Positions 7,508 through 23,048 of a stretch of DNA of 23,048 nucleotides are shown one piece after another. Each line of letters starts with the position of its first letter. Within the stretch, counting starts at the first letter, position 1. The stretch is from a virus (lineage: Duplodnaviria > Heunggongvirae > Uroviricota > Caudoviricetes): IMG/VR virus record IMGVR_UViG_2651869692_000002; one strand, 5' to 3'. The notes under the pieces are model-generated. The model saw only the letters and a list, made by a program, of their open reading frames with translations. It did no database searches and was not told where the DNA came from. The position numbers were made by a program, and so were the translations under genes.

Positions 7508-8563
7508 TTATGCTCCGGCTTCTACGGCGACGCTGAAGTCGCCAATCTGGATGTTTTCCACCAGTGCTGCGCAGCGGTAGTCCTCAACCACATAGGCTTC
7601 GTTAACGGATTCAAAGTTTTCAATCCGGTCACGTTTCGGGTTGTCGATAACTGAACGGCGGCGGGTGTCTTCCTGCCAGTAGATGGACAGGTTATCCAGA
7701 CGGGTGATCAGCAGCGCATTCGGCGGGAAGAACGGCGCACGCACGGCCTGCAGGCCACCCATGCGTTTCTGGCTGATGATCATATCGGCAGCCAGTTTTT
7801 CACTGTTTTCCTGCTCTTTGTTGACCAGCGGGAAATACTTATCAGACAACAGTTCACGACCGCAAATCACCACCAGATCGTCATCGTCCTGGTAGACCAC
7901 GTCGATAAGCTCATTGACCGCATCCATCACCACGGCGTCCAGGTTGGCATATTCGCCACCTTTACCGACTTTCACCGCGCCCGGTGTGGTTTCACCGCCC
8001 GTGGTGGTGCTGCCCATGACGTGATCCGGTGCATCCTCACGGATTTTCTGTAGCCAGCCTTTATTCACATCCTGCAGCAGCGGGTTTTCGCTGCGGTTGG
8101 AGGTTTTCGCACGCTTCACGCCGTTAAAGCCGATCATGATGCGGTCCAGTGCCTGACGTTTCACGATGGCGTCACGGATACGCACCTGGAAATCCTGAAA
8201 CTTCGCCCACAGGTCCAGCTTCGCGTAGGTCAGCACCGTGTCAAAGTTGGTCTGCTCGCATTTATATTCCACATCGACCATCAGCGTCGGATCGACAGGC
8301 TCACGCTCTTTTGCGGTGGTATCAGTGGTTCCTGCAATGGTGCTGCCAACACCCAGCCCCAGCAACTGACCAGACTGCTCAGTCACTGGCGTGACGTTAA
8401 TCAGCGTCAGGAATGCGGCGGACTGCTGGATCTGGTCTTCCAGCGTCTGCTGCACAGACGGCTCTACAGTAAACTTGCTGGACAGTTCTTCAACTGCCAC
8501 ACCGTTCAGACGCGCCAGCTGCTGCAGGTAAGCGTTAAAAGCAAAGCGGGTATTCTTCTTCAT
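7508..8563 (-). CDS. N: Major capsid protein (P2 gpN-like)
   Basis: 351-aa ORF with extended similarity to gpN (TRF.FNAYL, KFTVEPSV.QTL, GFNGVKRA.TS.RS.NP.LQDV, GKGG.YA.LDA.VMDA). Confidence 0.9.
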   Translation of the reverse strand: MKKNTRFAFNAYLQQLARLNGVAVEELSSKFTVEPSVQQTLEDQIQQSAAFLTLINVTPVTEQSGQLLGLGVGSTIAGTTDTTAKEREPVDPTLMVDVEYKCEQTNFDTVLTYAKLDLWAKFQDFQVRIRDAIVKRQALDRIMIGFNGVKRAKTSNRSENPLLQDVNKGWLQKIREDAPDHVMGSTTTGGETTPGAVKVGKGGEYANLDAVVMDAVNELIDVVYQDDDDLVVICGRELLSDKYFPLVNKEQENSEKLAADMIISQKRMGGLQAVRAPFFPPNALLITRLDNLSIYWQEDTRRRSVIDNPKRDRIENFESVNEAYVVEDYRCAALVENIQIGDFSVAVEAGA

Positions 8564-8579
8564 CAGGTTTTGTGCTCCA

Positions 8580-9413
8580 TCAGCAATTGGTCAGAGTGTC
8601 AGCGGGGGCGTTACCGCCTGTTGCACGCTGGCGGTAGTCCTGGCGGCTGTCTTCATGGCTCAGCTTGTCCACCAGTTCGTTAAAGGCGGTCTGCTGTGCC
8701 TGCAGAGCAATCTCCAGCTCAGACAGGCGTTCTTCCTGCTCAGACAGGGATTTTTCGGTGCGTGCGCTCAGGTTCTGCTGCTCAGTGGCGACCAGCTCCA
8801 CGGCCTTATGCACATCAGAGAATCGGGCGTCATCGGACTGCTCTTTTTTGGTGAACAGCGCCGTGACACGGGCAAACAGGGACGGTTTGTCATCCTGGAT
8901 TTCTTCCAGTTCGATCACCGTTTCCTCTGCAGCGGTAAAGAGATTGGCAGGATTCTGCTTGCGGTTTGCCAGCGGGTTATGGGCCGCACTGGCGCTGAAT
9001 GTCAGCATTTCAGTGCCCAGACTGGCAGGGTCATCAGTGGCAGCCAGGCCGACCAGGTAGGCTTTGCCCGTATCAGCAAACTTCGGGCTGACTTCCATAG
9101 AGGTGAATAATTTCTGGCCTTTTTTCACCAGCTCCACCAGGGATTCCGTTGGCTCAACGTCGGCATACAGCGCCATCTTGCCCGCCAGCGGACCTTCCGT
9201 GATTTCTTCAGCAAACAGCGCCGTCACCTTGCCGTAGCGGTTAAAGGTGCTGTCCGGCAGATAAGACTTGATGTGCTCAAGGTTAATCAGAGCGGTATAC
9301 ACCGCCGGGTTGTAGCTGGCTGCCATCTGTTCCAGCCATTCACGCTGGATTTCGCGTCCGTCGGTGGTGGCACCTTCCACCCCGATGCGAAAACGCTTTG
9401 CTTTCACTGTCAT
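8580..9413 (-). CDS. O: Capsid scaffolding protein (P2 gpO-like)
   Basis: 277-aa ORF; FRIGVEG...DGR, YLVGLA.TDDPASLGTE and C-terminal ATGG......TNC motifs as in gpO. Confidence 0.85.
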   Translation of the reverse strand: MTVKAKRFRIGVEGATTDGREIQREWLEQMAASYNPAVYTALINLEHIKSYLPDSTFNRYGKVTALFAEEITEGPLAGKMALYADVEPTESLVELVKKGQKLFTSMEVSPKFADTGKAYLVGLAATDDPASLGTEMLTFSASAAHNPLANRKQNPANLFTAAEETVIELEEIQDDKPSLFARVTALFTKKEQSDDARFSDVHKAVELVATEQQNLSARTEKSLSEQEERLSELEIALQAQQTAFNELVDKLSHEDSRQDYRQRATGGNAPADTLTNC

Positions 9414-9555: not shown

Positions 9556-11322
9556 ATGAACACCACACTGACACCCGCAGATCTCGATCCCCGTCGGCAG
9601 GCCATGCTGCTGTACTTTCAGGGATACCGTGTAGCCCGCATTGCTGAAATGCTGGGCGAGAAAGTTGCAACCGTTCACAGCTGGAAAAAACGCGACAAGT
9701 GGGGTGACTATGGGCCGCTGGATCAGATGCAGCTCACCACCGCCGCACGCTACTGCCAGCTCATTATGAAGGAGCACAAAGAAGGGAAAGATTTCAAAGA
9801 GATTGACCTGCTGGCGCGCCAGTCGGAGCGCCATGCGCGGATCGGCAAGTTTAACAATGGCGGCAACGAAGCCGACTTAAACCCTAACGTCGCCAACCGC
9901 AACAAAGGCCCGCGCCGTCAGCCGGAAAAGAACGTTTTCACCGATGAACAGATTGAGAAGCTGGAAGAAATCTTCCATTCCTCCATGTTCAACTACCAGC
10001 GCCACTGGTGGGAAGCCGGAAAAACCAACCGCATCCGCAACCTGCTGAAGTCACGCCAGATCGGCGCGACCTTCTATTTTGCCCGTGAAGCCCTGATTGA
10101 CGCCCTGCTAACCAGGCGTAACCAGATTTTCCTTTCCGCCAGCAAGGCTCAGGCCCACGTCTTCAAGCAGTACATCATCGACTTCGCCAAAGAAGTGGAG
10201 GTGGAGCTGAAAGGCGATCCGATGGTGCTTCCTAACGGGGCCACGCTGTACTTCCTCGGCACCAATGCCCGCACGGCCCAGAGTTACCACGGCAACCTGT
10301 ATCTGGATGAATATTTCTGGATACCGAAATTCCAGGAGCTGCGCAAAGTGGCTTCCGGTATGGCTATTCACAAAAAATGGCGACAAACCTATTTTTCCAC
10401 GCCATCCAGCCTGACACACAGTGCTTATCCGTTCTGGTCCGGTGCGCTGTTCAACCGAGGGCGCAACAAAGCCGATAAGGTGGACATCGACCTGTCCCAC
10501 AGCAATCTGGCCCCCGGCCTGCTGTGCGCAGACGGGCAGTACCGCCAGATAGTCACTGTGGAAGATGCGGTGCGCGGCGGCTGTAACCTGTTCGACCTCG
10601 ACCAGTTGCGCATGGAGTACAGCCCGGACGAATACCAGAACCTGCTGATGTGTGAGTTCGTGGACGATCTCGCGTCCGTGTTCCCGCTCAGCGAGCTGCA
10701 GGCGTGCATGGTGGACAGCTGGGAAGTCTGGACCGACTTTCATGCACTGGCGCTGCGCCCGTTTGGCTGGCGCGAAGTGTGGATCGGTTATGACCCGGCA
10801 AAAGGTACGCAAAACGGCGACAGCGCCGGATGCGTGGTGGTGGCTCCGCCAGCCGTGCCGGGCGGCAAGTTCCGCATTCTTGAGCGTCACCAGTGGCGCG
10901 GAATGGACTTTCGCGCCCAGGCTGACGCCATCAAAAAACTGACCGAACAGTATAACGTGACCTATATCGGCATCGACTCGACCGGCGTCGGTCACGGGGT
11001 TTACGAGAACGTGAAAGCGTTTTTTCCTGCCGTCCGGGAGTTTGTCTACAACCCCAACGTTAAAAACGCCCTGGTACTCAAGGCCTACGACATTATCAGC
11101 CACCGCCGCCTGGAGTTTGACGCCGGGCACACCGACATTGCGCAGTCATTTATGGCAATCCGTCGCGCTACCACTGCCAGTGGCAACCGCCCGACCTATG
11201 AAGCCAGCCGCAGCGAAGAAGCCAGCCATGCCGATCTGGCCTGGGCAACAATGCACGCACTGTTTAACGAACCGCTGCAGGGCGAGTCCGCCAATACCAG
11301 CAATATTGTGGAGATTTTTTGA
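9556..11322 (+). CDS. P: Terminase large/ATPase subunit (P2 gpP-like)
   Basis: 588-aa ORF, ATG at 9556, full-length resemblance to P2-family terminase large subunits; stop overlaps the Q start (TGATG). Confidence 0.9.
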   Translation: MNTTLTPADLDPRRQAMLLYFQGYRVARIAEMLGEKVATVHSWKKRDKWGDYGPLDQMQLTTAARYCQLIMKEHKEGKDFKEIDLLARQSERHARIGKFNNGGNEADLNPNVANRNKGPRRQPEKNVFTDEQIEKLEEIFHSSMFNYQRHWWEAGKTNRIRNLLKSRQIGATFYFAREALIDALLTRRNQIFLSASKAQAHVFKQYIIDFAKEVEVELKGDPMVLPNGATLYFLGTNARTAQSYHGNLYLDEYFWIPKFQELRKVASGMAIHKKWRQTYFSTPSSLTHSAYPFWSGALFNRGRNKADKVDIDLSHSNLAPGLLCADGQYRQIVTVEDAVRGGCNLFDLDQLRMEYSPDEYQNLLMCEFVDDLASVFPLSELQACMVDSWEVWTDFHALALRPFGWREVWIGYDPAKGTQNGDSAGCVVVAPPAVPGGKFRILERHQWRGMDFRAQADAIKKLTEQYNVTYIGIDSTGVGHGVYENVKAFFPAVREFVYNPNVKNALVLKAYDIISHRRLEFDAGHTDIAQSFMAIRRATTASGNRPTYEASRSEEASHADLAWATMHALFNEPLQGESANTSNIVEIF

Positions 11323-12356
11323 TGGGAAAGAGTAAGAAGAACCGCGCTGCGTCGACGAAACAGATCCAGCATAAAAGCCAGACTTCAGCCGAAGCATTCA
11401 GCTTCGGTGATCCCGTTCCTGTTCTGGACCGCCGCGAACTGCTGGACTATGTGGAATGCGTACAGATGGATCGCTGGTATGAGCCACCAGTGAGTTTCGA
11501 CGGACTGGCGCGAACCTTCCGCGCCGCCATACATCATAGCTCACCGATTGCAGTGAAGTGCAACATTCTGACCAGCACCTACATCCCTCACCCGCTGCTC
11601 AGCCAGCAGGCTTTTTCGCGTTTTGTACAGGACTTTCTGGTTTTTGGTAACGCCTACCTGGAGAAACGCACGAACCGCTTCGGTGAAGTTATAGCCCTTG
11701 AGCCTGCTCTGGCAAAATACACCCGACGCGGGTTAGACCTGGATACCTACTGGTTTGTGCAATACGGTATGACAACCCAGCCGTATCAGTTCACGAAAGG
11801 CAGCATTTTTCATCTGATGGAGCCGGACATCAACCAGGAGATCTACGGCCTGCCCGGTTATCTTTCTGCCATTCCGTCAGCCCTGCTCAACGAGTCCGCC
11901 ACGCTGTTCCGCCGGAAGTATTACATTAACGGCAGCCATGCGGGCTTCATCATGTACATGACCGACGCCGCGCAGAACCAGGAGGATGTGAACAACCTCC
12001 GCAACGCAATGAAAAGTGCCAAAGGTCCTGGTAACTTCCGTAACCTGTTTATGTACTCGCCTAACGGCAAAAAGGACGGGCTTCAGATTATCCCGTTGTC
12101 AGAAGTGGCGGCGAAGGATGAGTTCCTGAATATCAAGAACGTGAGCCGGGACGACATGATGGCGGCGCATCGTGTGCCGCCGCAAATGATGGGTATCATT
12201 CCCAACAATACCGGCGGTTTTGGGGATGTGGAAAAGGCCAGTCGCGTCTTCACAAGAAACGAAATAGTACCGTTACAAAAGCGATTGCTGGAGCTAAATG
12301 AATGGCTTGGTGAAGAGGTAGTCCGATTCAATCCATATGAGCTTAATACTGACTAG
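11322..12356 (+). CDS. Q: Portal (capsid portal vertex) protein (P2 gpQ-like)
   Basis: Track ORF starts at a TTG at 11319; the ATG at 11322 gives 344 aa, the length I recall for gpQ; the last ~80 nt are visibly AT-richer than the rest. Confidence 0.9.
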   Translation: MGKSKKNRAASTKQIQHKSQTSAEAFSFGDPVPVLDRRELLDYVECVQMDRWYEPPVSFDGLARTFRAAIHHSSPIAVKCNILTSTYIPHPLLSQQAFSRFVQDFLVFGNAYLEKRTNRFGEVIALEPALAKYTRRGLDLDTYWFVQYGMTTQPYQFTKGSIFHLMEPDINQEIYGLPGYLSAIPSALLNESATLFRRKYYINGSHAGFIMYMTDAAQNQEDVNNLRNAMKSAKGPGNFRNLFMYSPNGKKDGLQIIPLSEVAAKDEFLNIKNVSRDDMMAAHRVPPQMMGIIPNNTGGFGDVEKASRVFTRNEIVPLQKRLLELNEWLGEEVVRFNPYELNTD

Positions 12357-12363
12357 CAAGCAT

Positions 12364-12388
12364 AAAAAAGCCCGGTATTACCGGGCTT
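12364..12388 (-). terminator. Rho-independent terminator (hairpin plus T-tract on the minus strand), possibly bidirectional
   Basis: AAAAA-AGCCCGG-TATTA-CCGGGCT: GC stem followed by a T-run when read on the minus strand; sits between the Q stop and the 3' end of the minus-strand small ORF. Confidence 0.55.
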
Positions 12389-12411
12389 CATGCAAAACGC
12401 ATTTCATGGAA

Positions 12412-12591
12412 TTAAGCAGCTTTCTGCTTTTCTTTGAGCTTACCATGCAGCTCATTTCCTTCAAATTTGCAGTCCTGCATCATATGTGGGGCCGCTTGAA
12501 GTAGTTCTTCCATCGCGACGCCCATACGGCTGAAAACATCAGATACTGAGTAATGCTTCTGAGCTTTCTTGTCACTATGCGTCATAGTCAT
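12412..12591 (-). CDS. Small hypothetical protein (59 aa), second gene of a two-gene minus-strand module
   Basis: Not in the ORF track (under 60 aa); ATG at 12591 preceded by AGAGGA at good spacing; reads MTMTHSDKKAQKHYSVSDVFSRMGVAMEELLQAAPHMMQDCKFEGNELHGKLKEKQKAA; followed by the terminator at 12364-12388. Confidence 0.4.
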   Translation of the reverse strand: MTMTHSDKKAQKHYSVSDVFSRMGVAMEELLQAAPHMMQDCKFEGNELHGKLKEKQKAA

Positions 12592-12670
12592 GATTTCCTC
12601 TTAGAGGTCAAGCCTCATCATCCGGTGGTGGATGTTTGGCGCAGCATTGTAGCACTGCGCAAAAATTTAT

Positions 12671-13270
12671 CTACTGTTTCTTAGAAGTAATGTAGCGTCT
12701 TACTACATCAGTTATTGTAGCAAAAGGTGCCGAAAGCAAGCTTATATCACCTTTAAAACCAAATTTTTTATAGTGGTCAGCAACTTTTTGATTCAGGGCT
12801 TCAGGGATCCGAATCTCTTGACACCCAACCGCGCTACCAAAAAGATATACCGCCCACAATGTAACCATGAACATGTTGCCGTAAAGAGGGTGCTCTACGT
12901 CATCATCTTTCACAAAAGATTCCACAAAATGGATCTCTATGACTCCAGCGTCCTCGTCAAAGGTGCACATAGCTGCGCCAGAAGGGATATGCCTAAGTGG
13001 CCCCGCAAGGAGCTTCAAACAAAATTCAAACTTATCACTTCGATTGCCAAACCGAGAAAAACCATAATCCCATTCTAGCTGAGCGTATCCTGTGGTCAGG
13101 ATCACATAGTCTTCATCACTGATTGGACCAACAGCCAACGGCATCTTCAAAGTATCGAGGAGAAACTGAAGGTTACTTATACTTTGACTGGCAATCTGCT
13201 CTAAGTTCAATTCTCTGTCCTTCATGCTTACGACATTAAAGGCGACTACTTTAATGTCATTTTCGGACAA
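12671..13270 (-). CDS. Hypothetical protein (199 aa), AT-rich accessory gene between the portal gene and the putative cos
   Basis: 600-nt ORF in an AT-rich region; start uncertain (TTG at 13270 or ATG at 13225, neither with a strong RBS); no family recognised. Confidence 0.5.
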   Translation of the reverse strand: MSENDIKVVAFNVVSMKDRELNLEQIASQSISNLQFLLDTLKMPLAVGPISDEDYVILTTGYAQLEWDYGFSRFGNRSDKFEFCLKLLAGPLRHIPSGAAMCTFDEDAGVIEIHFVESFVKDDDVEHPLYGNMFMVTLWAVYLFGSAVGCQEIRIPEALNQKVADHYKKFGFKGDISLLSAPFATITDVVRRYITSKKQ

Positions 13271-13496
13271 AGACTATAAATCTTTAATGAAACAATAGCA
13301 GAACCTTTTAAAGGTTTGCTACCTATCACTGCAACTTGTGACAGAACACTAAATCTACAGCCAACTCCGGAACACATTCAACATTTATTTAAATCCCTTC
13401 AAACAAGATTGCACAAAAACGCGCCCTCCCTTTCAGAAGAAAACCATCAGCGGGCCTGAGGCTAAGTGAATTTTACTATTTCAACCCGCGGCGCGC

Positions 13497-13515
13497 GCTC
13501 GTATCCCCGCCACGC
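13497..13515 (-). other. Putative cos site (cohesive-end region) of the P2/186 family
   Basis: Minus strand reads GGCGTGGCGGGGATACGAG; the first 13 nt match my recollection of the P2/186 cohesive-end consensus (GGCG(A/T)GGCGGGGAAAGCA.), in the orientation expected for the Q-proximal genome end; GC-rich island inside AT-rich DNA. Confidence 0.4.
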
Positions 13516-13560
13516 CTGCCCGCTTTGTGTAGTGGTTTTCATGCACCTGCATGACATAAG

Positions 13561-13584
13561 CAAAAGCCCGCCAGCTCTGGCGGG
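13561..13584 (-). terminator. Rho-independent terminator downstream of the HNH gene
   Basis: 9-bp GC stem GCCCGCCAG / CTGGCGGGC followed on the minus strand by TTTTGCTT. Confidence 0.55.
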
Positions 13585-13698
13585 CATCAGCAAAAACGAT
13601 CCTCAAACGATCATGCGATTTCATGCGGCATAGACATGCGTTGGCAAAAATGCACGAAATACTCAGCTTATAGGAAATGGTCTTTTTCCAACCTCCAG

Positions 13699-14418
13699 TT
13701 AGCCAAAGCAGAAACCAATATTGCAATTTGAAACTCCACAGTTGTGAAATTGATGTGGACCTACTCTTAGCTTGTGTTCGTCTCCTACAATCCGAGTCCC
13801 CTTAACCAACATATCTAATCTTTCCACAATCAATCTTTCAGGCGCATCAACTTTAATAATTAAACGAGGACCTTTCCTTTTTTCTATAATAGTTATTCTA
13901 GGACCGACAACCTGAACATCCCAATGCCTTGCACTACAAACCCACTCATTCTTAATTAATTCAAGATTAACAATACCTTGACTATCGTAAAATTTACCCG
14001 AAATAAGAAAAGCATTATTTTCTTTTTCAATGGTTAACAATGGCTCATTTTGAAACATTATTGGTACAGTACAGGATTCAAACGTCGCACCACCAAATAT
14101 TATTGTTGGATGCCTATCAGAAAAGTCCAATATATCGGCCACATTCCCTTTTTGTAAGGCTGCAGGAGATTCCATTGCTTTAATTATTTTCTCTTTAGAG
14201 TAAAGACGTTTCGTTACTTTCGCATGGCACGTAGGACAAAGTAGTGCTATTGCATTTGGAGAGTGCTCCTTTGCATCAGCGTATGTGGGAATTACATGCT
14301 CATACTCAACAATGGGAGAAGCACAAACAACGCAACCGAAGCCACAGCGCTGCCTTACCTCCAGTTTTACAGGTTCAGGAATTGTTCTAGATAACCCATG
14401 CTTGTTAATAGTTGTCAT
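13699..14418 (-). CDS. HNH-family endonuclease domain protein with uncharacterised ~160-aa C-terminal domain
   Basis: 239-aa ORF, ATG at 14418; N-terminal CGFGCVVC...EYEHVIP...NAIALLCPTCH matches the HNH fold (paired Cys plus H-N-H residues); AT-rich composition; own terminator. Confidence 0.7.
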   Translation of the reverse strand: MTTINKHGLSRTIPEPVKLEVRQRCGFGCVVCASPIVEYEHVIPTYADAKEHSPNAIALLCPTCHAKVTKRLYSKEKIIKAMESPAALQKGNVADILDFSDRHPTIIFGGATFESCTVPIMFQNEPLLTIEKENNAFLISGKFYDSQGIVNLELIKNEWVCSARHWDVQVVGPRITIIEKRKGPRLIIKVDAPERLIVERLDMLVKGTRIVGDEHKLRVGPHQFHNCGVSNCNIGFCFG

Positions 14419-14540
14419 AACCTTACCTTAAAACTTCGAGAAACCTTTTATATATTGATACTATATCAACTAACGCCTCGCACAGCTCGTTGTTCAACCT
14501 TGCTGACGCCAGAAGCAAGTTCAGACGCCAGCAACGTTTC

Positions 14541-14774
14541 TTAATGCAGCCAGCTGTCGTCTTCCCACACCTTCTGCATAATTTTCATCACTTGTTTTCT
14601 TTCTTCGTCCAGTTGAAGTCCGGTCAGTTCCACACCGTTAGAGCTACCTTTGCGGATACGAATTACCGTTTTGGGATACAGGGGGCGCAGATTGCGGTAA
14701 AGCTCGGATTCAAGGGCGTCCAGGGTAGACTGGCTAATCTTCTGCTCTTTATCGATCATTATTTCAATGCGCAT
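14541..14774 (-). CDS. dinI: DinI-family protein
   Basis: ATG at 14774 with GAGGTGA RBS; MRIEIMIDK...L.ELYRNLRPLYPKTVIRIRKGSSNGVELTGL...KQVMKIMQKVWEDDSWL resembles DinI (MRIEVTI..., C-terminal ...WE..D.W); the track ORF's longer N-terminus is a frame artefact. Confidence 0.75.
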   Translation of the reverse strand: MRIEIMIDKEQKISQSTLDALESELYRNLRPLYPKTVIRIRKGSSNGVELTGLQLDEERKQVMKIMQKVWEDDSWLH

Positions 14775-14784
14775 AAAAGTCACC

Positions 14785-14973
14785 TCAACTGATGACATCC
14801 ATTGAGCGGTTGTATTCGTGGGTTCTGATTTTTGCCATGAGTTCATCTGTCAGTTCAGAAACCCACTGCAGGGCCAGCCCCTTCTCTTCATCACTACACT
14901 CACTAGCCGCTACAAGCTTAAGAAAAAAATCAATGCGCTGGAGCTTCAAAGACTCCAAAAAATAGTCCTGCAT
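14785..14973 (-). CDS. Small SOS-controlled protein (62 aa), first gene downstream of a LexA box; possible Tum-like antirepressor component
   Basis: ATG at 14973 with AGGAGG RBS, 41 nt downstream of a consensus LexA box; stop overlaps the RBS of the DinI-like gene; functional assignment is by position only. Confidence 0.5.
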   Translation of the reverse strand: MQDYFLESLKLQRIDFFLKLVAASECSDEEKGLALQWVSELTDELMAKIRTHEYNRSMDVIS

Positions 14974-15014
14974 CTTTCCTCCTATGACACCACAAGAAAT
15001 ACTGTAAATATAAC

Positions 15015-15034
15015 CACTGTTTATATTTACAGTA
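15015..15034 (-). promoter_or_regulatory. LexA operator (SOS box) at the promoter of the small-ORF / dinI module
   Basis: Minus strand TACTGTAAATATAAACAGTG fits CTGT-N8-ACAG with AT-rich spacer; an adjacent half-site (CTGT at 15002-15005) is also present. Confidence 0.7.
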
Positions 15035-15125
15035 TATAATAATCTTACTGATGTAAAACGTTTTTTACGTTCATCAGCCTGATATGCCTGGTATTATTAA
15101 GAGCACGAATTGTTAACCCGCGTGA

Positions 15126-17540
15126 TTAATACAGGTTCCGCCACTTATCATCTTCCTGCAAACGCTGGTTCCGATAGAAGATACGCAGGCCTGCTCCTGA
15201 CGGAATACTGCCGCCGCGAAGGAGTAAATCGACCTCTTTCTCGCTGCCATCAAATCCTCTGGACTTCAGTTCATAGACGAGCTGCTGTCGCTGATGGTCT
15301 GTAATTCGCTGTTTGTAGTCTTTACGCCGTTTCGGTTTCACCAGGCGTAACCTTGCTGCCAGTTCCCGGCGCTCTTTTTTGCTCATACTGTGCAGGTAAT
15401 CGTGCAACTCCTTGTCATCCATGCGGGTAATGTCCGTTCTGGTATCCCCATCAGCTGATTTGTCTTTCCCTTGTTGGTTCAAATTTTCAGCAAGGGGACA
15501 GTTATTGCCACGAGTCCAAGGGGCGCAAGCGCCCTGGTCGGCTGCCGCCTCCTGAACGTCAACGGCCTTACGAACCATTTTCCACTTCACGGCATGAGTG
15601 CAGATCTTGCCCTCTGCAATAGGTGACCAGATGCCATAAATACGAATGCCGTGATCGCCATAGGCGGTCGGCTCTTCGTTGATTTCATAAGCAGTTCTGA
15701 TGAGGTGATATTTACGGGGAACCAGTACGCCGCCCTGCTTCATGATGTAGGTGGCAAAACAACCAGCATCAGCAGCAGCCAGGATTGCATCAAGCCGCGG
15801 GTTATCCAGTACCGGCGCACCTGCTTTTTTGTCACCCTGTTGCCTTGCCGCCTGACCAGCCAGCAATCGCAGTTCACGGTAAGCCTGACGCCCCGGAATG
15901 CCAAAGAAGCGGAATTGCTGAACACGATGCAGAGACGCCCAGGCATTCACGTATTCAGCGTTATCACGCAGGGATTTACCCGTTTCCTTGCTGATCTCGC
16001 CAGCCAGACCACGCCCGTCAATGTTCTTACTGATATATTTCGCGATGTAGCTTGTCGGCGTTCCTTTGCGCGGGTTAATCAACTCAGACTTAAAGCGTGG
16101 TCCCGTGTTATTCCCCAGCTCCTCGCGGTCTTCACGAATGGCAAACTTACGCAACAAAGCAGTAATGGCGCGGCGATCTTTTTTGCGCATAAAACACAAC
16201 AGGTGCCAGTGAACTGTACCGTCATGATGCGGCTCAGCCACCCGCACGCCATACCAGCGCAATCCGGCTTTGTGCATCGCCTTACGAAATGCAGCAAACA
16301 TGCCAACCAGATAATCACTGCTTTGTCTTACCGTCGCATTTGTCCAGGTCGGGTTGGGCCTGCCGTTATTTAGCGTGGAATGGAAACGTGACGGACAGGT
16401 GATGGTGTAGAAAACGGCGCAGTCACCGCGCATTTCCGCGATAAGCTCCAGGCCTTTAACACAGGCCATCATCTCATTGCGGCGATGCGCAGGGTTGCTG
16501 CTGCTGGCGTTTACCACATCCTCCATGTCCAGCGTGTCGCCGTCTTCGTTCACCAGTTCATGAGAACGGAAAAACTCCAGCGACTTACGGCGCTGCTCAC
16601 GTTTATGCATCACGGCTTCATAGCTGACATAGGGAGATGCTTTTTTGCTGACCAGACAGACAGCACGCAACTGCTCTTCCCGCCATTCGCAACGCATCTT
16701 CCATAATTTCCGATACCACCAGTCGGCGCACAGCATACGCGCCAGCGAACCCGGAATGAGTTCATAGGGCACAGGTTTGCGGCGGTTTCTTTTTCGGCGG
16801 AGTTGCTCAAACGCAGGCGGTATGACATCCAGTCGCAGGGTTTCTGCTGCCACCTTTTCCCATGTCTTGCGGATTTCTTCCGGCTTAACATCATCGGAGG
16901 CGTACAAATCACCACAAGCGGCATCAAGACACATGCTCATATGCGCAGCGACAAGGGTGGACAGGCGTTTCACCTGATCCTGACTCATTTCAGGCAGGAT
17001 CAGCAGACCGTCCAGCCCTTCATGGCTTGCCATAAAACGAAAAGATGCAGATAGCTGGCTGTCGCGTACATGCTCCAGTCGTTCCAGGCATGGCTTAATC
17101 GTCTCACGCAAATAGCGGGAATAAGCCTTTGGCCTGCCCAGGTTGCTGAAGTATTTAATACGTTGCATCAGCGGCTTGCTGATATGGGAAGGCTGGGCGT
17201 TGACATCCGCCAGAATGACCATGTCTGGATTAAAACGCTGCTGCTCATGCGCCAGCTTTGCCCGGCTAATTAGCTTATCCTGCTCCATTTCGCGCTGGAC
17301 AGGATCACGGGATTCATTAAAGAAATAACGCTCCCAGACCTGATCACTCAGTGCCTCGCGGCGCAGTTGTTCCTGCTCGTTATCGGCAGCGTACAGAGTG
17401 ATCAGGTTTGAAAGTGCAGAAACCGGCGCAACTTCCGCCGGGTCCAGATAAGGGTTAATGGCCTTTTTCGGGCTGTTCCATGAGAATGCTGCGGCAGCCT
17501 CGTTAAAGCCGCAGCAGTTGTTCATATCGGCATGACTCAT
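15126..17540 (-). CDS. A: Rolling-circle replication initiation protein (P2 gpA-like)
   Basis: 804-aa ORF with HWHLL metal-binding motif and YIAKYISK tyrosine motif typical of gpA/phiX174-type Rep proteins; canonical position after the early operon. Confidence 0.85.
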
Positions 17541-21097: not shown

Positions 21098-21283
21098 TTT
21101 TTGCTTTTATATCTGCGCCTAATATAACAATGAGCCGCAGGCTAACCGCAAAAGTCACATACTCACATAGCAAAAAATAGCCAACTTCATTATGGCTTCA
21201 GTGAGATGTATGGTCGCAAGATTTCATACATTGACACTGGTTATACATACAGTAAAAATGCTCTCTATTGGAGGGCATTTTTT

Positions 21284-22315
21284 ATGGCAGTACGAAAACT
21301 CACCACAGGAAAATGGCTTTGCGAATGTTACCCCGCCGGACGTAGTGGGCGTCGTGTGCGTAAACAATTCGCCACCAAAGGCGAAGCACTGGCTTTTGAG
21401 CGTCACACGATGGAAGAAACCGAAGCAAAGCCCTGGCTGGGCGAATCAGTAGATCGTCGAACCCTGAAAGACGTGGTTGAGCTATGGTTCAAACTACATG
21501 GTAAATCTCTGACTGCTGGGCAGCATGTCTATGACAAATTGCTGCTGATGGTTGACGCTCTGGGCAATCCCCTTGCAACCGATCTCACATCTAAAATGTT
21601 TGCCCATTATCGAGATAAACGACTGACAGGTGAGATCTACTTCAGCGAGAAATGGAAGAAAGGGGCCAGCCCGGTCACCATTAACCTGGAGCAAAGCTAT
21701 CTAAGTAGTGTTTTTAGCGAACTATCCCGCCTGGGCGAATGGTCGTATCCAAACCCACTGGAGAACATGCGAAAATTCACCATCGCAGAAAAAGAGATGG
21801 CATGGCTTACCCATGAGCAGATTGTTGAACTGCTGGATGATTGCAAACGTCAGGACCCAATTCTGGCACTGGTAGTCAAGATATGCTTAAGCACAGGCGC
21901 ACGCTGGCGAGAAGCAATAAACCTTACCCGATCACAGGTGACCAAATACCGAATTACCTTTGTAAGAACGAAGGGGAAGAAAAACAGAAGCATCCCTATC
22001 AGTAAAGAGCTTTATGAAGAGATCATGGCGCTTGATGGGTTCAATTTCTTCACAGACTGCTATTTTCAATTTTTATCCGTGATGGAAAAAACGTCTATCG
22101 TGCTCCCTCGCGGTCAACTTACACACGTTCTGCGTCATACGTTTGCGGCGCATTTCATGATGTCGGGTGGAAACATCCTTGCTTTGCAAAAAATCCTCGG
22201 ACATCACGACATAAAAATGACTATGCGTTATGCTCATCTATCACCTGATCACTTAGAGACAGCTCTTCGTTTCAATCCACTGGCAACTTTGGATGTTACT
22301 AAATCAGATTCTTAA
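21284..22315 (+). CDS. int: Tyrosine integrase (P2/186 family)
   Basis: ATG at 21284 with GGAGGG RBS (track ORF has a 26-codon upstream extension); catalytic region VLRHTFAAHFMMSGGNILALQKILGHHDIKMTMRYAHL contains the H-x-x-R and Y motifs. Confidence 0.9.
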   Translation: MAVRKLTTGKWLCECYPAGRSGRRVRKQFATKGEALAFERHTMEETEAKPWLGESVDRRTLKDVVELWFKLHGKSLTAGQHVYDKLLLMVDALGNPLATDLTSKMFAHYRDKRLTGEIYFSEKWKKGASPVTINLEQSYLSSVFSELSRLGEWSYPNPLENMRKFTIAEKEMAWLTHEQIVELLDDCKRQDPILALVVKICLSTGARWREAINLTRSQVTKYRITFVRTKGKKNRSIPISKELYEEIMALDGFNFFTDCYFQFLSVMEKTSIVLPRGQLTHVLRHTFAAHFMMSGGNILALQKILGHHDIKMTMRYAHLSPDHLETALRFNPLATLDVTKSDS

Positions 22316-22325
22316 AGGTTCAAGC

Positions 22326-23048
22326 ATGGTTAAGTTTTTGTTTCAATTCCCAATATTCGACTTCTCCTTAACATTTGATATTATCGAGACGTTAATCACT
22401 CATAGCGAATCATCAATCGCTAAGGGCATAGCAGAATATAAAGACAAAGGACCTGAAGAATATATAATTGAAATATCTCCGGAAGATGGTGTATATCAGT
22501 CAATTGATCATTACATGGGACTCACCAGCTCATCGCTAGATCTCGATGAAATGTTTTTAGAATACTACCCAAGTATTATCCGCAGGTCAGTATTCTTAAC
22601 TATATTCGGAATTTTTGAGCACGAAATAGAAAAATTCTGTAACAACTTTGCTAATAGACATCATTCTCCTATAAATGTTTCAGATCTCAAAGGAAGTGGA
22701 TTTGAGAGGAGCCATCTATTTATCAAAAAAATGATAGGGATGAAGTCAACATCCCACTATTCGAATATCAAAAAAATAACAAAATTAAGAAACAGTTGTG
22801 CGCATAATGATGCAAAATACTTAGAAAACGATGGGCAAAATATTAAAAGCATTATTGAACTTATAGAAAAATATCCTGATTTTTTTAAAAAAGATGGAAA
22901 ACAGGTCCTATTTATGGGGGGCTCGTTAAGCATGATCTTGAACTCATTCAAAGAGTATCTTTCTGATGTTGAAAGAGCCTTAGATGAATTCGAAAAACAA
23001 AGCACTAGTGGCGACAAAGTGGCGGCAGCGGTTGGCATTACCCCGTAA
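22326..23048 (+). CDS. HEPN-motif protein (candidate RNase/abortive-infection-type effector); may alternatively start at 22293
   Basis: Very AT-rich ORF directly after int; canonical HEPN R-x4-H motif (RNSCAH at 22788-22805); final ~45 nt are abruptly GC-rich. Confidence 0.5.
   Translation: MVKFLFQFPIFDFSLTFDIIETLITHSESSIAKGIAEYKDKGPEEYIIEISPEDGVYQSIDHYMGLTSSSLDLDEMFLEYYPSIIRRSVFLTIFGIFEHEIEKFCNNFANRHHSPINVSDLKGSGFERSHLFIKKMIGMKSTSHYSNIKKITKLRNSCAHNDAKYLENDGQNIKSIIELIEKYPDFFKKDGKQVLFMGGSLSMILNSFKEYLSDVERALDEFEKQSTSGDKVAAAVGITP

What the first reader, a model, noticed from the sequence alone, without database searches (positions are those of the whole stretch)
12357..15125. AT-rich accessory island in the portal-to-replicase gap, the known P2 defence hotspot
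Between the portal stop (12356) and the replication gene (15126) lie ~2.8 kb of visibly AT-richer DNA with five minus-strand genes that are not part of the conserved P2/186 core. They are a 199-aa unknown, a 59-aa unknown, an HNH nuclease, a small SOS-controlled ORF and a DinI-like gene. In P2 this interval carries tin/old and is a documented hotspot for swapped-in anti-phage cargo. None of the cargo here resembles tin, old or any system I can name.
Basis: partly seen in the sequence, partly recalled or inferred. Interest (0 to 1): 0.75.

Follow-up and report, generated by a model that had tools for sequence, protein, structure and literature searches.

The report
Two cargo slots flanking prophage cos
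The AT-rich gap between the portal and replication genes of this P2/186-like prophage is the already-published defence hotspot, and here it holds the phage's own SOS switch, its packaging (cos) site, and two rare, independently swapped, untested cargo cassettes: a stand-alone HNH nuclease and an acetyltransferase-fold protein with a tiny obligate partner.

Summary
The five minus-strand ORFs and the low GC are real. The interval is not one island. Two of the five genes (62 aa and 77-aa DinI-like, behind a LexA box at 15017-15032) are the split Tum SOS-induction operon, which is core to 186/Fels-2/PSP3-type phages. A conserved 150-bp cos block (13491-13641) splits the remainder into two slots.

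Right slot (13642-14469): a 239-aa HNH nuclease with an acidic all-beta C-terminal domain. It is already listed, untested, as system 159 in Rousset 2022.

Left slot (about 12390-13490): a GNAT-fold protein plus a 59-aa partner.

The slots assort independently. Among 5426 complete E. coli genomes, the HNH is in 21, the GNAT pair in 11, and both in 1. Sister prophages carry Lamassu, AbiU or PDC-M03 at the same positions.

Neither cargo hits PADLOC, and no publication found here reports a test of either. The HNH family also occurs alone on plasmids, in lambdoid nin regions and as an integron cassette. In 84 of 84 loci the GNAT gene is followed by its partner, which always ends in -[K/Q]AA.

Most likely both are accessory immunity or addiction genes: a single-protein nuclease and a toxin-antitoxin-like pair. 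That function is inferred, not shown. The hotspot is known; the cargo is new candidate members.

The parts
12367..12389 (.). Hairpin plus T-run between the convergent portal gene (stop at 12356) and the 59-aa gene. Probably a bidirectional terminator and the outer edge of the left cargo slot.
   Evidence: Terminator-like site, 10-bp stem with a T-run; sequence.
12412..12591 (-). 59-aa small partner of the GNAT-fold protein (phrog_2741). It has a conserved helical core and a basic C-terminal tail ending in -KAA. A promoter-like site with an extended -10 (12673-12646) and a strong ribosome-binding site lie just upstream.
   Evidence: It follows the GNAT gene on the same strand in 84 of 84 loci, and all 31 distinct sequences end in KAA or QAA. 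It is 55% identical to the Serratia prophage partner and 34% to the mEp460 partner.
12671..13270 (-). GNAT-fold (acetyltransferase-fold) protein, 199-aa ORF. The real start is probably M16 at 13225, giving 184 aa. It belongs to phrog_4350 and has no Pfam or NCBIfam hit.
13491..13641 (-). Conserved cos (packaging) region. The P2/186-type cohesive-end core GGCGTGGCGGGGATACGAG lies on the minus strand at 13498-13516. It separates the left (portal-side) slot from the right (tum-side) slot.
   Evidence: Sequence. The block is conserved against Fels-2 and an ETEC prophage while both flanks diverge. It equals the right end plus the left end of the linear phage Cartapus record, where the depositors annotate a cos site. 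Edwardsiella has the same layout. An exact P2 cos query with up to 3 mismatches found nothing, so the match is to the first 13 nt only.
13642..14469 (-). HNH cassette, 829 bp. It is absent from the empty-site allele of phage vB_EcoM-813R9, where the cos block abuts the tum hairpin region. It includes a 51-nt leader with the palindrome TTGATACTATATCAA (14455-14469). No promoter-like site was found on the minus strand upstream of the gene.
   Evidence: Junction alignments; promoter scan.
13699..14418 (-). 239-aa protein. Residues 1-90 form a basic HNH (His-Me finger) nuclease domain with a CxxC...CxxC zinc site. Residues 92-238 form an acidic all-beta domain with an invariant NEW...WD motif and no fold match.
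14500..14534 (-). 11-bp stem hairpin immediately after the DinI stop codon, with no U-tract. It belongs to the conserved tum module, not to the cargo.
   Evidence: Fold. It is shared with ETEC and 813R9 prophages that carry different or no cargo.
14541..14774 (-). 77-aa DinI-like protein, the downstream (TumB-type) half of the split tum gene. Core, not cargo.
   Evidence: PF06183 E 1.3e-22. PGAP aa. Fels-2 annotation points to PsP3 TumB. Literature.
14785..14973 (-). 62-aa protein (phrog_698), the upstream half of the split tum gene and the predicted antirepressor. Core, not cargo.
   Evidence: Found in 66 phage records at 41-100% identity. PMC3121763 states that tum is split in Fels-2 and PSP3 and that the upstream half carries the antirepressor activity.
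15017..15032 (.). LexA (SOS) box CTGTTTATATTTACAG in the promoter region of the tum operon.
   Evidence: The only CTGT-N8-ACAG match in the 23-kb window. Its position matches the LexA-repressed tum promoter of phage 186 (the promoter name p95 is from my own knowledge).

Best explanation
SHOWN:
- The portal-to-replicase gap of this 186/Fels-2-type P2-like prophage is a composite.
- From the replication gene outward it holds: (i) the phage's LexA-boxed, split tum operon (62-aa antirepressor half plus 77-aa DinI half); (ii) a right-end cargo slot; (iii) the cos site; (iv) a left-end cargo slot next to the portal gene.
- The two slots are bounded by conserved sequence (tum hairpin, cos block, portal terminator) and are filled independently in related prophages.

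INFERRED:
- Exchange probably happens by homologous recombination through those conserved flanks.
- The right-slot cargo is a self-contained single-protein nuclease. A basic HNH domain would cut DNA. The attached acidic beta domain would not bind DNA; it would gate or sense. The gene appears to have no promoter of its own, so it is probably transcribed by read-through from upstream, which here means the SOS-controlled tum operon.
- The left-slot cargo is a two-gene, toxin-antitoxin-like unit. The GNAT-fold enzyme (motif B catalytic Tyr intact) is the effector. The 59-aa partner, with its own promoter-like site, a lysine-rich tail and an invariant C-terminal Ala-Ala, is a labile inhibitor or pseudo-substrate.
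- Loss of the partner, for example when an infecting phage shuts off host expression, would free the acetyltransferase to block growth.
- Both cassettes most likely serve the lysogen as anti-phage or addiction functions, as the known systems in the same slots do.
For: Anatomy:
- ORFs and GC; cos core and conserved block; cassette junctions and an empty-site allele.
- LexA box; tum identity.

Independent assortment:
- HNH in 21, GNAT pair in 11, both in 1 of 5426 complete E. coli genomes.
- Strain L73 has Lamassu in the left slot and the HNH in the right. Strain SF-173 has the GNAT pair in the left and PDC-M03 in the right. Fels-2 has AbiU in the left.
- The hotspot is published.

HNH protein:
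- PF01844, conserved catalytic and zinc residues, confident model.
- Fixed HNH-plus-beta-domain architecture in 443 clusters.
- It occurs as a solitary gene in a Hafnia 186-like prophage (same slot), lambdoid nin regions, a Pseudomonas prophage, Acinetobacter plasmids and a 27-repeat integron cassette array.
- It is almost absent from sequenced phage genomes: 2 of 50,697 records.

GNAT pair:
- GNAT fold; motif B conserved.
- Partner always adjacent (84 of 84 loci) and always ending in [K/Q]AA.
- Found at positions typical of accessory ('moron') genes: between cos and portal, beside int in mEp460, and directly downstream of a cI-like S24 repressor in a Serratia prophage.
Against: - No experiment and no homology to any validated defence or toxin-antitoxin protein. 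PADLOC gives nothing. Pfam, NCBIfam and PDB sequence searches give nothing for the GNAT protein or its partner.
- Rousset listed the HNH protein but did not test it. Only about a third of the hotspot systems they cloned scored as active.
- GNAT motif A is divergent.
- The gene order (enzyme first, partner second, 79-nt gap) and the lack of an RHH/DUF1778 domain differ from the known GNAT toxin-antitoxin pairs.
- The HNH gene lies on the same strand as, and downstream of, an induction or lytic transcription unit in both P2-like and lambdoid contexts. That fits an induction-phase function as well as a defence function.
- The reading of the C-terminal -AA as a degron rests on general knowledge of ClpXP, not on a test.
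Confidence: 0.5

Rival explanations
1. The HNH gene is a selfish free-standing homing endonuclease. It cuts the empty cos/tum junction of sister phages and copies itself in. It gives the lysogen no benefit.
For: - Presence/absence polymorphism at one precisely conserved site, with an intact empty allele.
- It is an HNH nuclease.
- Its occurrence in lambdoid nin regions, where, to my knowledge, HNH homing genes are common.
Against: - Only 2 of 50,697 phage records carry a relative, and no hit in a phage known to be virulent.
- Family members sit in an integron cassette array and on plasmids.
- The C-terminal domain is acidic and matches no DNA-binding module of homing enzymes.
- The full-length architecture is conserved over 443 clusters.
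- Every other cargo type in this slot shows the same polymorphism.
Confidence: 0.12
2. The HNH nuclease serves the phage itself during SOS induction or lytic growth. It would be co-transcribed with tum and act as a Ref/Rap-like recombination nuclease, a host or competitor DNA degrader, or an accessory to cos cutting like HK97 gp74.
For: - No promoter-like site in its 51-nt leader, and only a U-less hairpin between DinI and the HNH gene.
- It is co-oriented behind lytic or induction operons in both P2-like and lambdoid phages.
- It lies next to cos.
- It neighbours a DinI-like protein, which binds RecA filaments.
Against: - Present in only 21 of 5426 E. coli genomes, while phages with an empty slot are viable and are the commonest allele among sequenced relatives. 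It is therefore not needed for packaging or growth.
- Integron-cassette and plasmid members have no phage cycle to serve.
- gp74-type proteins are about 100-120 aa and lack this C-terminal domain (my own knowledge).
Confidence: 0.2
3. The GNAT pair is not a toxin-antitoxin or abortive-infection unit. It is a counter-defence or host-modifying acetyltransferase (as AcrVA5 acetylates Cas12a), and the small protein is its adaptor, regulator or substrate.
For: - GNAT fold without toxin-specific features.
- Partner gene downstream rather than upstream, and no antitoxin-type DNA-binding domain detected.
- A 38-aa core of the partner is 61% identical to part of an early protein of virulent Klebsiella Jedunavirus phages. 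The motif may therefore bind a host target.
Against: - It sits in slots that hold Lamassu or AbiU in sister phages.
- It lies directly behind a cI-type repressor gene in a Serratia prophage, a position where lysogen-expressed exclusion genes such as lambda rexAB lie (the rexAB comparison is my own knowledge).
- The strict two-gene linkage and the invariant C-terminal -AA fit a labile inhibitor.
Confidence: 0.2
4. The cargo genes are decaying hitch-hikers with no current function.
For: They are rare, AT-rich and unannotated.
Against: - The ORFs are intact.
- Copies in unrelated E. coli strains are at least 99% identical.
- Both families are conserved over full length with invariant motifs down to about 35-45% identity.
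- The structure models are confident.
Confidence: 0.05

Closest known systems
P2-like phage gpA-gpQ (tin/old) cos-proximal defence hotspot (Rousset et al. 2022; Vassallo et al. 2022; Odegrip et al. 2006)
   Same: - Same genomic position: between the replication endonuclease and the portal, next to cos.
- The same cargo swapping between related prophages.
- The identical HNH protein appears in their Table S5B as system 159, with 11 occurrences.
   Different: - Here the interval resolves into two slots on either side of cos that assort independently.
- In this 186/Fels-2 lineage part of the interval is the core tum operon.
- Neither cargo cassette has been tested.
Phage 186 Tum SOS operon (LexA-repressed antirepressor; split tum of Fels-2 and PSP3)
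   Same: - A LexA box, a 62-aa upstream half and a DinI-like downstream half.
- The same position after the replication gene.
   Different: - Two ORFs rather than the 146-aa fusion of phage 186.
- Antirepressor activity is not tested here.
GNAT toxin-antitoxin pairs (TacAT, AtaRT, KacAT, ItaRT)
   Same: - A GNAT-fold enzyme of about 180 aa, strictly paired with a small protein and carried on mobile elements.
   Different: - No sequence similarity.
- The partner is downstream, only 57-60 aa, and has no RHH/DUF1778 domain.
- Motif A is divergent.
- Toxicity and tRNA acetylation are untested.
Single-protein or effector HNH nucleases of immunity systems (CBASS Cap5, EcoKMcrA-type type IV enzymes, Septu PtuB, integron-borne Sirona/Nemetona)
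   Same: - An HNH catalytic core joined to a non-catalytic domain.
- Best structural matches are Cap5 and McrA.
- Integron cassettes with single HNH-like genes have been shown to defend.
   Different: - The C-terminal domain matches no SAVED, SRA or other reader domain, and it is acidic.
- No Pfam NinG match, which the source paper reports for Sirona/Nemetona.
- No PADLOC match above noise.
- Sequences of Sirona and Nemetona were not available for comparison.

Membership tests
P2-like gpA-gpQ cos-proximal hotspot | Lies between the replication endonuclease gpA and the portal gpQ, adjacent to cos. | tested here: met
   gpA-like gene at 15126-17540, portal at 11319-12356 (annotation); cos at 13491-13641.
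P2-like gpA-gpQ cos-proximal hotspot | Gene content varies between otherwise similar prophages. | tested here: met
P2-like gpA-gpQ cos-proximal hotspot | The cargo confers anti-phage defence. | not testable with these tools
   Needs cloning and phage challenge. Sister-slot cargo matches Lamassu, AbiU and PDC-M03.
Any system in PADLOC-DB 2.0 | Significant match to a defence-protein model. | tested here: not met
   Only marginal HNH-core hits (E 0.0095 and 0.035). Nothing for the GNAT protein or the small partner.
HNH / His-Me finger nuclease superfamily | HNH profile match and conserved catalytic His, Asn/His and zinc cysteines. | tested here: met
   PF01844 scores 24.8 bits against a cut-off of 21.4. 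C29, C32, H41 and C61 are invariant; C64 is nearly invariant; position 65 is H or N. Alignment to the IscB HNH.
Type IV modification-dependent restriction enzyme (McrA-like) | An HNH domain joined to a modified-DNA reader domain (SRA, NEco, SBD or PUA-like). | tested here: not met
HK97 gp74-type packaging HNH | Conserved in all related cos phages and required together with the terminase. | tested here: not met
   Present in 21 of 5426 genomes. Sequenced phages with an empty slot are common.
HNH homing endonuclease | Presence/absence at a conserved target site, plus a sequence-specific DNA-binding module. | tested here: inconclusive
   The polymorphism is present. No DNA-binding module was detected, and the family is rare in phages and occurs in integrons and plasmids.
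GNAT (GCN5-related N-acetyltransferase) fold | GNAT fold with motif A (Q/RxxGxG/A) and motif B (catalytic Tyr). | tested here: inconclusive
GNAT/RHH type II toxin-antitoxin (TacAT/AtaRT) | An upstream RHH/DUF1778 antitoxin gene overlapping or abutting the toxin gene. | tested here: not met
   The partner lies downstream across a 79-nt gap and has no Pfam domain.
GNAT/RHH type II toxin-antitoxin (TacAT/AtaRT) | The toxin arrests growth by acetylating aminoacyl-tRNA, and the partner neutralises it. | not testable with these tools
   Needs expression and biochemistry.
Phage 186-type Tum SOS operon | A LexA box upstream, an antirepressor half followed by a DinI-like half, located downstream of the replication gene. 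| tested here: met

The most novel reading that the evidence does not exclude
Both cassettes are new immune systems.

(a) The HNH-plus-acidic-beta-domain family has 443 clusters at 50% identity. It is spread over prophages, plasmids and integron cassettes. It would be a widespread single-protein nuclease defence whose C-terminal domain is a new kind of sensor. In this prophage it would be kept safe by LexA-gated read-through expression.

(b) The GNAT-plus-[K/Q]AA-tailed micro-protein pair would be a new reverse-order GNAT toxin-antitoxin/abortive-infection module. The copy of the partner's 38-aa core inside an early protein of virulent Klebsiella Jedunavirus phages would be a phage-borne antitoxin mimic that disarms it.
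Probability: 0.3. Interest if true: 0.65.

Novelty: new member of a known kind. Interest (0 to 1): 0.42.

Why it matters
The hotspot itself is established, so its value lies in what it nominates.

This locus yields two compact candidates (0.8 kb and 1.1 kb) with clean boundaries that are ready to clone. Neither has similarity to any catalogued defence protein.

The HNH family is broad and recurs as a lone gene on very different mobile elements, including an integron cassette.

The GNAT pair has unusually strict synteny and a conserved C-terminal signature. A possible counterpart exists in virulent phages.

Seeing that cos divides the hotspot into two independently exchanging slots, and that the tum operon is core, also sharpens how such loci should be parsed in surveys. 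Counting tum/DinI as cargo inflates the number of 'arrangements'.

Tried and rejected
- An exact P2 cos query with up to 3 mismatches found nothing. The site was found by eye and then confirmed by alignment.
- My first LexA pattern had the wrong spacing and gave irrelevant hits. It was corrected.
- Pfam, NCBIfam and PDB sequence searches gave nothing for the GNAT protein or the small partner.
- The PDB profile search for the HNH family found only HNH cores.
- The afdb50 fold library was unavailable, so the HNH C-terminal domain was compared only with PDB structures.
- The 239-aa gene at the same slot in a Pantoea prophage turned out to be unrelated to the HNH protein.
- The roughly 165-aa 'C-domain only' hits look like truncated gene calls. 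They were not treated as evidence for domain shuffling.
- Literature checks for a validated name found nothing. Vassallo 2022 does not mention HNH or GNAT. The DefensePredictor supplements lack these accessions. The supplements of the 2026 NAR P2/P4 paper are not held. Sirona and Nemetona sequences are not in the held supplement.
- Rejected: the 81-aa ORF at 13481-13726 (phrog_28685) as a gene. It spans the conserved cos block and is best read as a spurious call.
- Rejected: a type IV restriction reading as the lead hypothesis, because the C-terminal domain is acidic and matches no reader fold.


Full report
**1. Observation**

- All five minus-strand ORFs are present at the stated coordinates.
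- GC falls to 0.34-0.48 between about 12200 and 15400, against 0.52-0.62 on either side.
- Pfam confirms the HNH domain (PF01844, above its gathering score) and the DinI domain (PF06183, E 1.3e-22).
- A canonical LexA box, CTGTTTATATTTACAG, lies at 15017-15032, 44 nt upstream of the 62-aa ORF. It is the only such match in the window.
- PADLOC-DB 2.0 gives only marginal HNH-core hits and nothing for the other proteins.
- All five proteins fall into PHROG families, four of which carry no known function; the fifth (phrog_189) is the DinI family.

**2. The interval is a composite, not one island**

Reading the sequence shows, on the minus strand at 13498-13516, GGCGTGGCGGGGATACGAG. Its first 13 nt match my recollection of the phage 186 cohesive end.

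The surrounding 150 bp (13491-13641) is conserved in Fels-2 and in an ETEC prophage, while the sequence on both sides diverges. This block equals the right terminus joined to the left terminus of the linear Escherichia phage Cartapus record. The depositors of that record annotate a cos site homologous to that of P2. An Edwardsiella P2-like prophage has the same layout.

So cos splits the gap into two slots:
- a left-end slot, from cos to the portal gene;
- a right-end slot, from tum to cos.

**3. Two of the five genes are core**

- The 62-aa ORF occurs in 66 phage records.
- DNA matching the interval, mostly its tum/replication-gene end, is found in about 1260 of 5426 complete E. coli genomes.
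- The Fels-2 annotation links the DinI-like gene to PsP3 TumB.
- PMC3121763 states that phage 186 Tum (146 aa) is an antirepressor fused to a DinI-like half. It also states that Fels-2 and PSP3 have this gene split by a stop codon, with the upstream half carrying the antirepressor activity.
- The 62-aa and 77-aa genes behind the LexA box are therefore the phage's SOS induction switch.
- Their low GC shows that AT-richness alone does not mark cargo here.

**4. Cargo boundaries and assortment**

Phage vB_EcoM-813R9 has an empty right slot. Its cos block ends at the equivalent of window 13641 and joins, through about 9 nt, to the sequence that begins at window 14470. The HNH cassette is therefore 13642-14469 (829 bp). 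The hairpin after the DinI stop (14500-14534) belongs to the conserved tum module.

| Feature | Complete E. coli genomes (of 5426) |
|---|---|
| HNH cassette | 21 |
| GNAT pair | 11 |
| Both together | 1 (CP172871) |

Sister prophages combine these cassettes with other cargo:

| Prophage | Left slot (cos to portal) | Right slot (tum to cos) |
|---|---|---|
| E. coli L73 | Lamassu (LmuB E 1e-253; LmuA split in two) | HNH |
| E. coli SF-173 | GNAT pair | HIRAN/HipA-type PDC-M03 candidate |
| Fels-2 | AbiU (E 5e-112) | 242-aa protein, unknown (no PADLOC hit) |
| Phage 813R9 | Hypoth_Ymh protein | empty |
| Phage Cartapus | DUF4145 protein | two hypothetical proteins |

Both slots behave as the published hotspot does.

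**5. The HNH protein**

*Structure and conservation*
- The AF2 model is confident (pLDDT 93). It shows an N-terminal HNH domain (residues 1-90) and an all-beta domain (residues 92-238).
- Across 51 homologues the zinc cysteines and H41 are invariant or nearly so. The last motif position is H or N. The C-terminal domain has an invariant NEW...WD signature.
- The N-domain is basic (median pI 9.2) and the C-domain acidic (median pI 5.3). This argues against a DNA-reader role and for a regulatory or sensing role.
- An exhaustive HMMER search with the C-domain alone found 443 clusters. The domain almost always follows an HNH at residues about 93-110. A few members carry C-terminal extensions such as TPR.

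*Genomic contexts.* The gene is always solitary:
- the same right slot in a Hafnia 186-like prophage;
- the nin region of E. coli and Enterobacter lambdoid prophages;
- a Pseudomonas prophage;
- Acinetobacter plasmids beside BrnTA and an AAA_15/21 gene;
- nine PLSDB plasmids;
- one cassette in a Rhizobacter array of 27 attC-like 146-nt repeats, which is an integron.

Only 2 of 50,697 sequenced phage records carry a relative.

*Published status.* The exact protein is Rousset's Table S5B system 159 ('HNH, 11 occurrences, likely a nuclease'). It was not among the eight systems they cloned.

*Expression.* The 51-nt cassette leader has no promoter-like site on the coding strand. Only a U-less hairpin separates it from the LexA-controlled tum operon. 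In lambdoid phages it is likewise co-oriented behind O/P. Expression by read-through is therefore likely, but this is inference.

**6. The GNAT pair**

*The enzyme*
- The 199-aa ORF probably starts at M16, giving 184 aa.
- It models as a GNAT fold (pLDDT 84.8).
- Motif B (NxxAxxxYxxxGF; N160, Y167, G171, F172) is conserved. Motif A is only partly retained.
- The family is small: 29 clusters; all named sources are Enterobacterales.

*The partner*
- In 80 of 80 IMG/VR loci, plus four others, the GNAT gene is followed on the same strand, 81-276 nt later, by a 57-60-aa homologue of the 59-aa ORF.
- All 31 distinct partner sequences end in KAA or QAA after a basic stretch.

*Positions.* The pair occupies three different positions typical of accessory ('moron') genes:
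- between cos and portal in P2-like prophages of E. coli, Pantoea and Edwardsiella;
- beside int in lambdoid mEp460;
- immediately downstream of an S24 cI-type repressor in a Serratia symbiotica prophage.

*Other features*
- The partner gene has a promoter-like site with an extended -10 and a good ribosome-binding site (sequence).
- Its 38-aa core is 61% identical to residues 57-94 of a 327-aa early protein (phrog_11133) of virulent Klebsiella Jedunavirus phages.

**7. Mechanism, with status of each step**

*Shown:* the anatomy; independent assortment; the folds; conservation; synteny; the contexts.

*Inferred:*
- (a) Cassettes move by recombination through the conserved flanks.
- (b) The HNH protein is a self-sufficient DNA nuclease gated by its acidic domain and by promoter-less, here SOS-coupled, expression.
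- (c) The GNAT enzyme is held in check by a labile, Lys-rich, AA-tailed partner and is released on infection. The degron reading rests on established ClpXP recognition of C-terminal Ala-Ala, not on a test here.

*Rivals* (each scored separately in the rival section):
- a homing endonuclease;
- an induction-phase, Ref/Rap-like nuclease;
- a counter-defence or host-modifying acetyltransferase;
- inert hitch-hikers.

**8. Comparison and novelty**

- The hotspot is already known.
- The tum operon is already known.
- The HNH protein is catalogued but uncharacterised.
- No published description of the GNAT pair was found, and it fails the defining gene-order and antitoxin-domain features of the TacAT/AtaRT families.
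- I therefore file the finding as new candidate members of a known kind of locus, with moderate interest.
- The refinement that cos splits the hotspot into two independently exchanging slots is useful but incremental.

Noticed in passing
window 22293-23048 (+): A complete 251-aa ORF, very AT-rich (GC 31-36%), overlaps the stop of the integrase gene (21206-22315). It contains an Rx4H HEPN-type motif (KLRNSCAHND). It gives only sub-threshold hits to HEPN_RiboL-PSP (E 0.005) and Abi_2 (E 0.046), and no PADLOC hit. In the otherwise near-identical prophage of E. coli CP172871 this position holds an unrelated 418-aa protein. This is therefore a third cargo-swapping slot (int-att), probably carrying an Abi-like HEPN gene.
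   Followed up: partly
window 12412-12591; L013 2333-3316 (Klebsiella phage KpV52 gp59): The 38-aa core of the 59-aa partner protein is 61% identical to residues 57-94 of a 327-aa early protein (phrog_11133). That protein heads an exonuclease/ssDNA-annealing operon in virulent Jedunavirus phages. A similar match exists in Acinetobacter phage LAPP1. It could be a shared host-binding motif or an antitoxin mimic.
   Followed up: partly
L024 1-16738 (Rhizobacter sp. AJA081-3 chromosome): 27 copies of a roughly 146-nt repeat, spaced 512-881 bp apart, each separating one small gene. This is a sedentary chromosomal integron array. One cassette (8001-8738) is an HNH-family member. Another is a GNAT (Acetyltransf_1) unrelated to the window's.
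   Followed up: partly
window 13481-13726 (-): An 81-aa ORF matching phrog_28685 runs straight across the conserved cos block. The PHROG family is probably built from spurious gene calls over cos sites of P2-like phages.
   Followed up: no
window 14455-14469: The perfect palindrome TTGATA-CTA-TATCAA lies in the 51-nt cassette-specific leader of the HNH gene. It could be an operator or a recombination scar. No function is assigned.
   Followed up: no
window 15002-15017: A second, half-matching LexA-like element (CTGTAAATATAACCAC) sits immediately beside the full SOS box at 15017-15032. This may be a tandem operator arrangement.
   Followed up: no
L015 3840-4920 (E. coli L73 prophage, left slot): The Lamassu LmuA gene is annotated as two overlapping ORFs (191 aa and 173 aa) that cover profile positions 3-190 and 191-360. 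This is either a frameshifted, possibly inactivated system or a sequencing error.
   Followed up: no
L017 5176-6842 (Serratia symbiotica prophage): The GNAT pair lies directly downstream of, and co-oriented with, an S24-peptidase cI-type repressor gene. This is the position that rexAB occupies in lambda, which suggests lysogen-time expression.
   Followed up: partly
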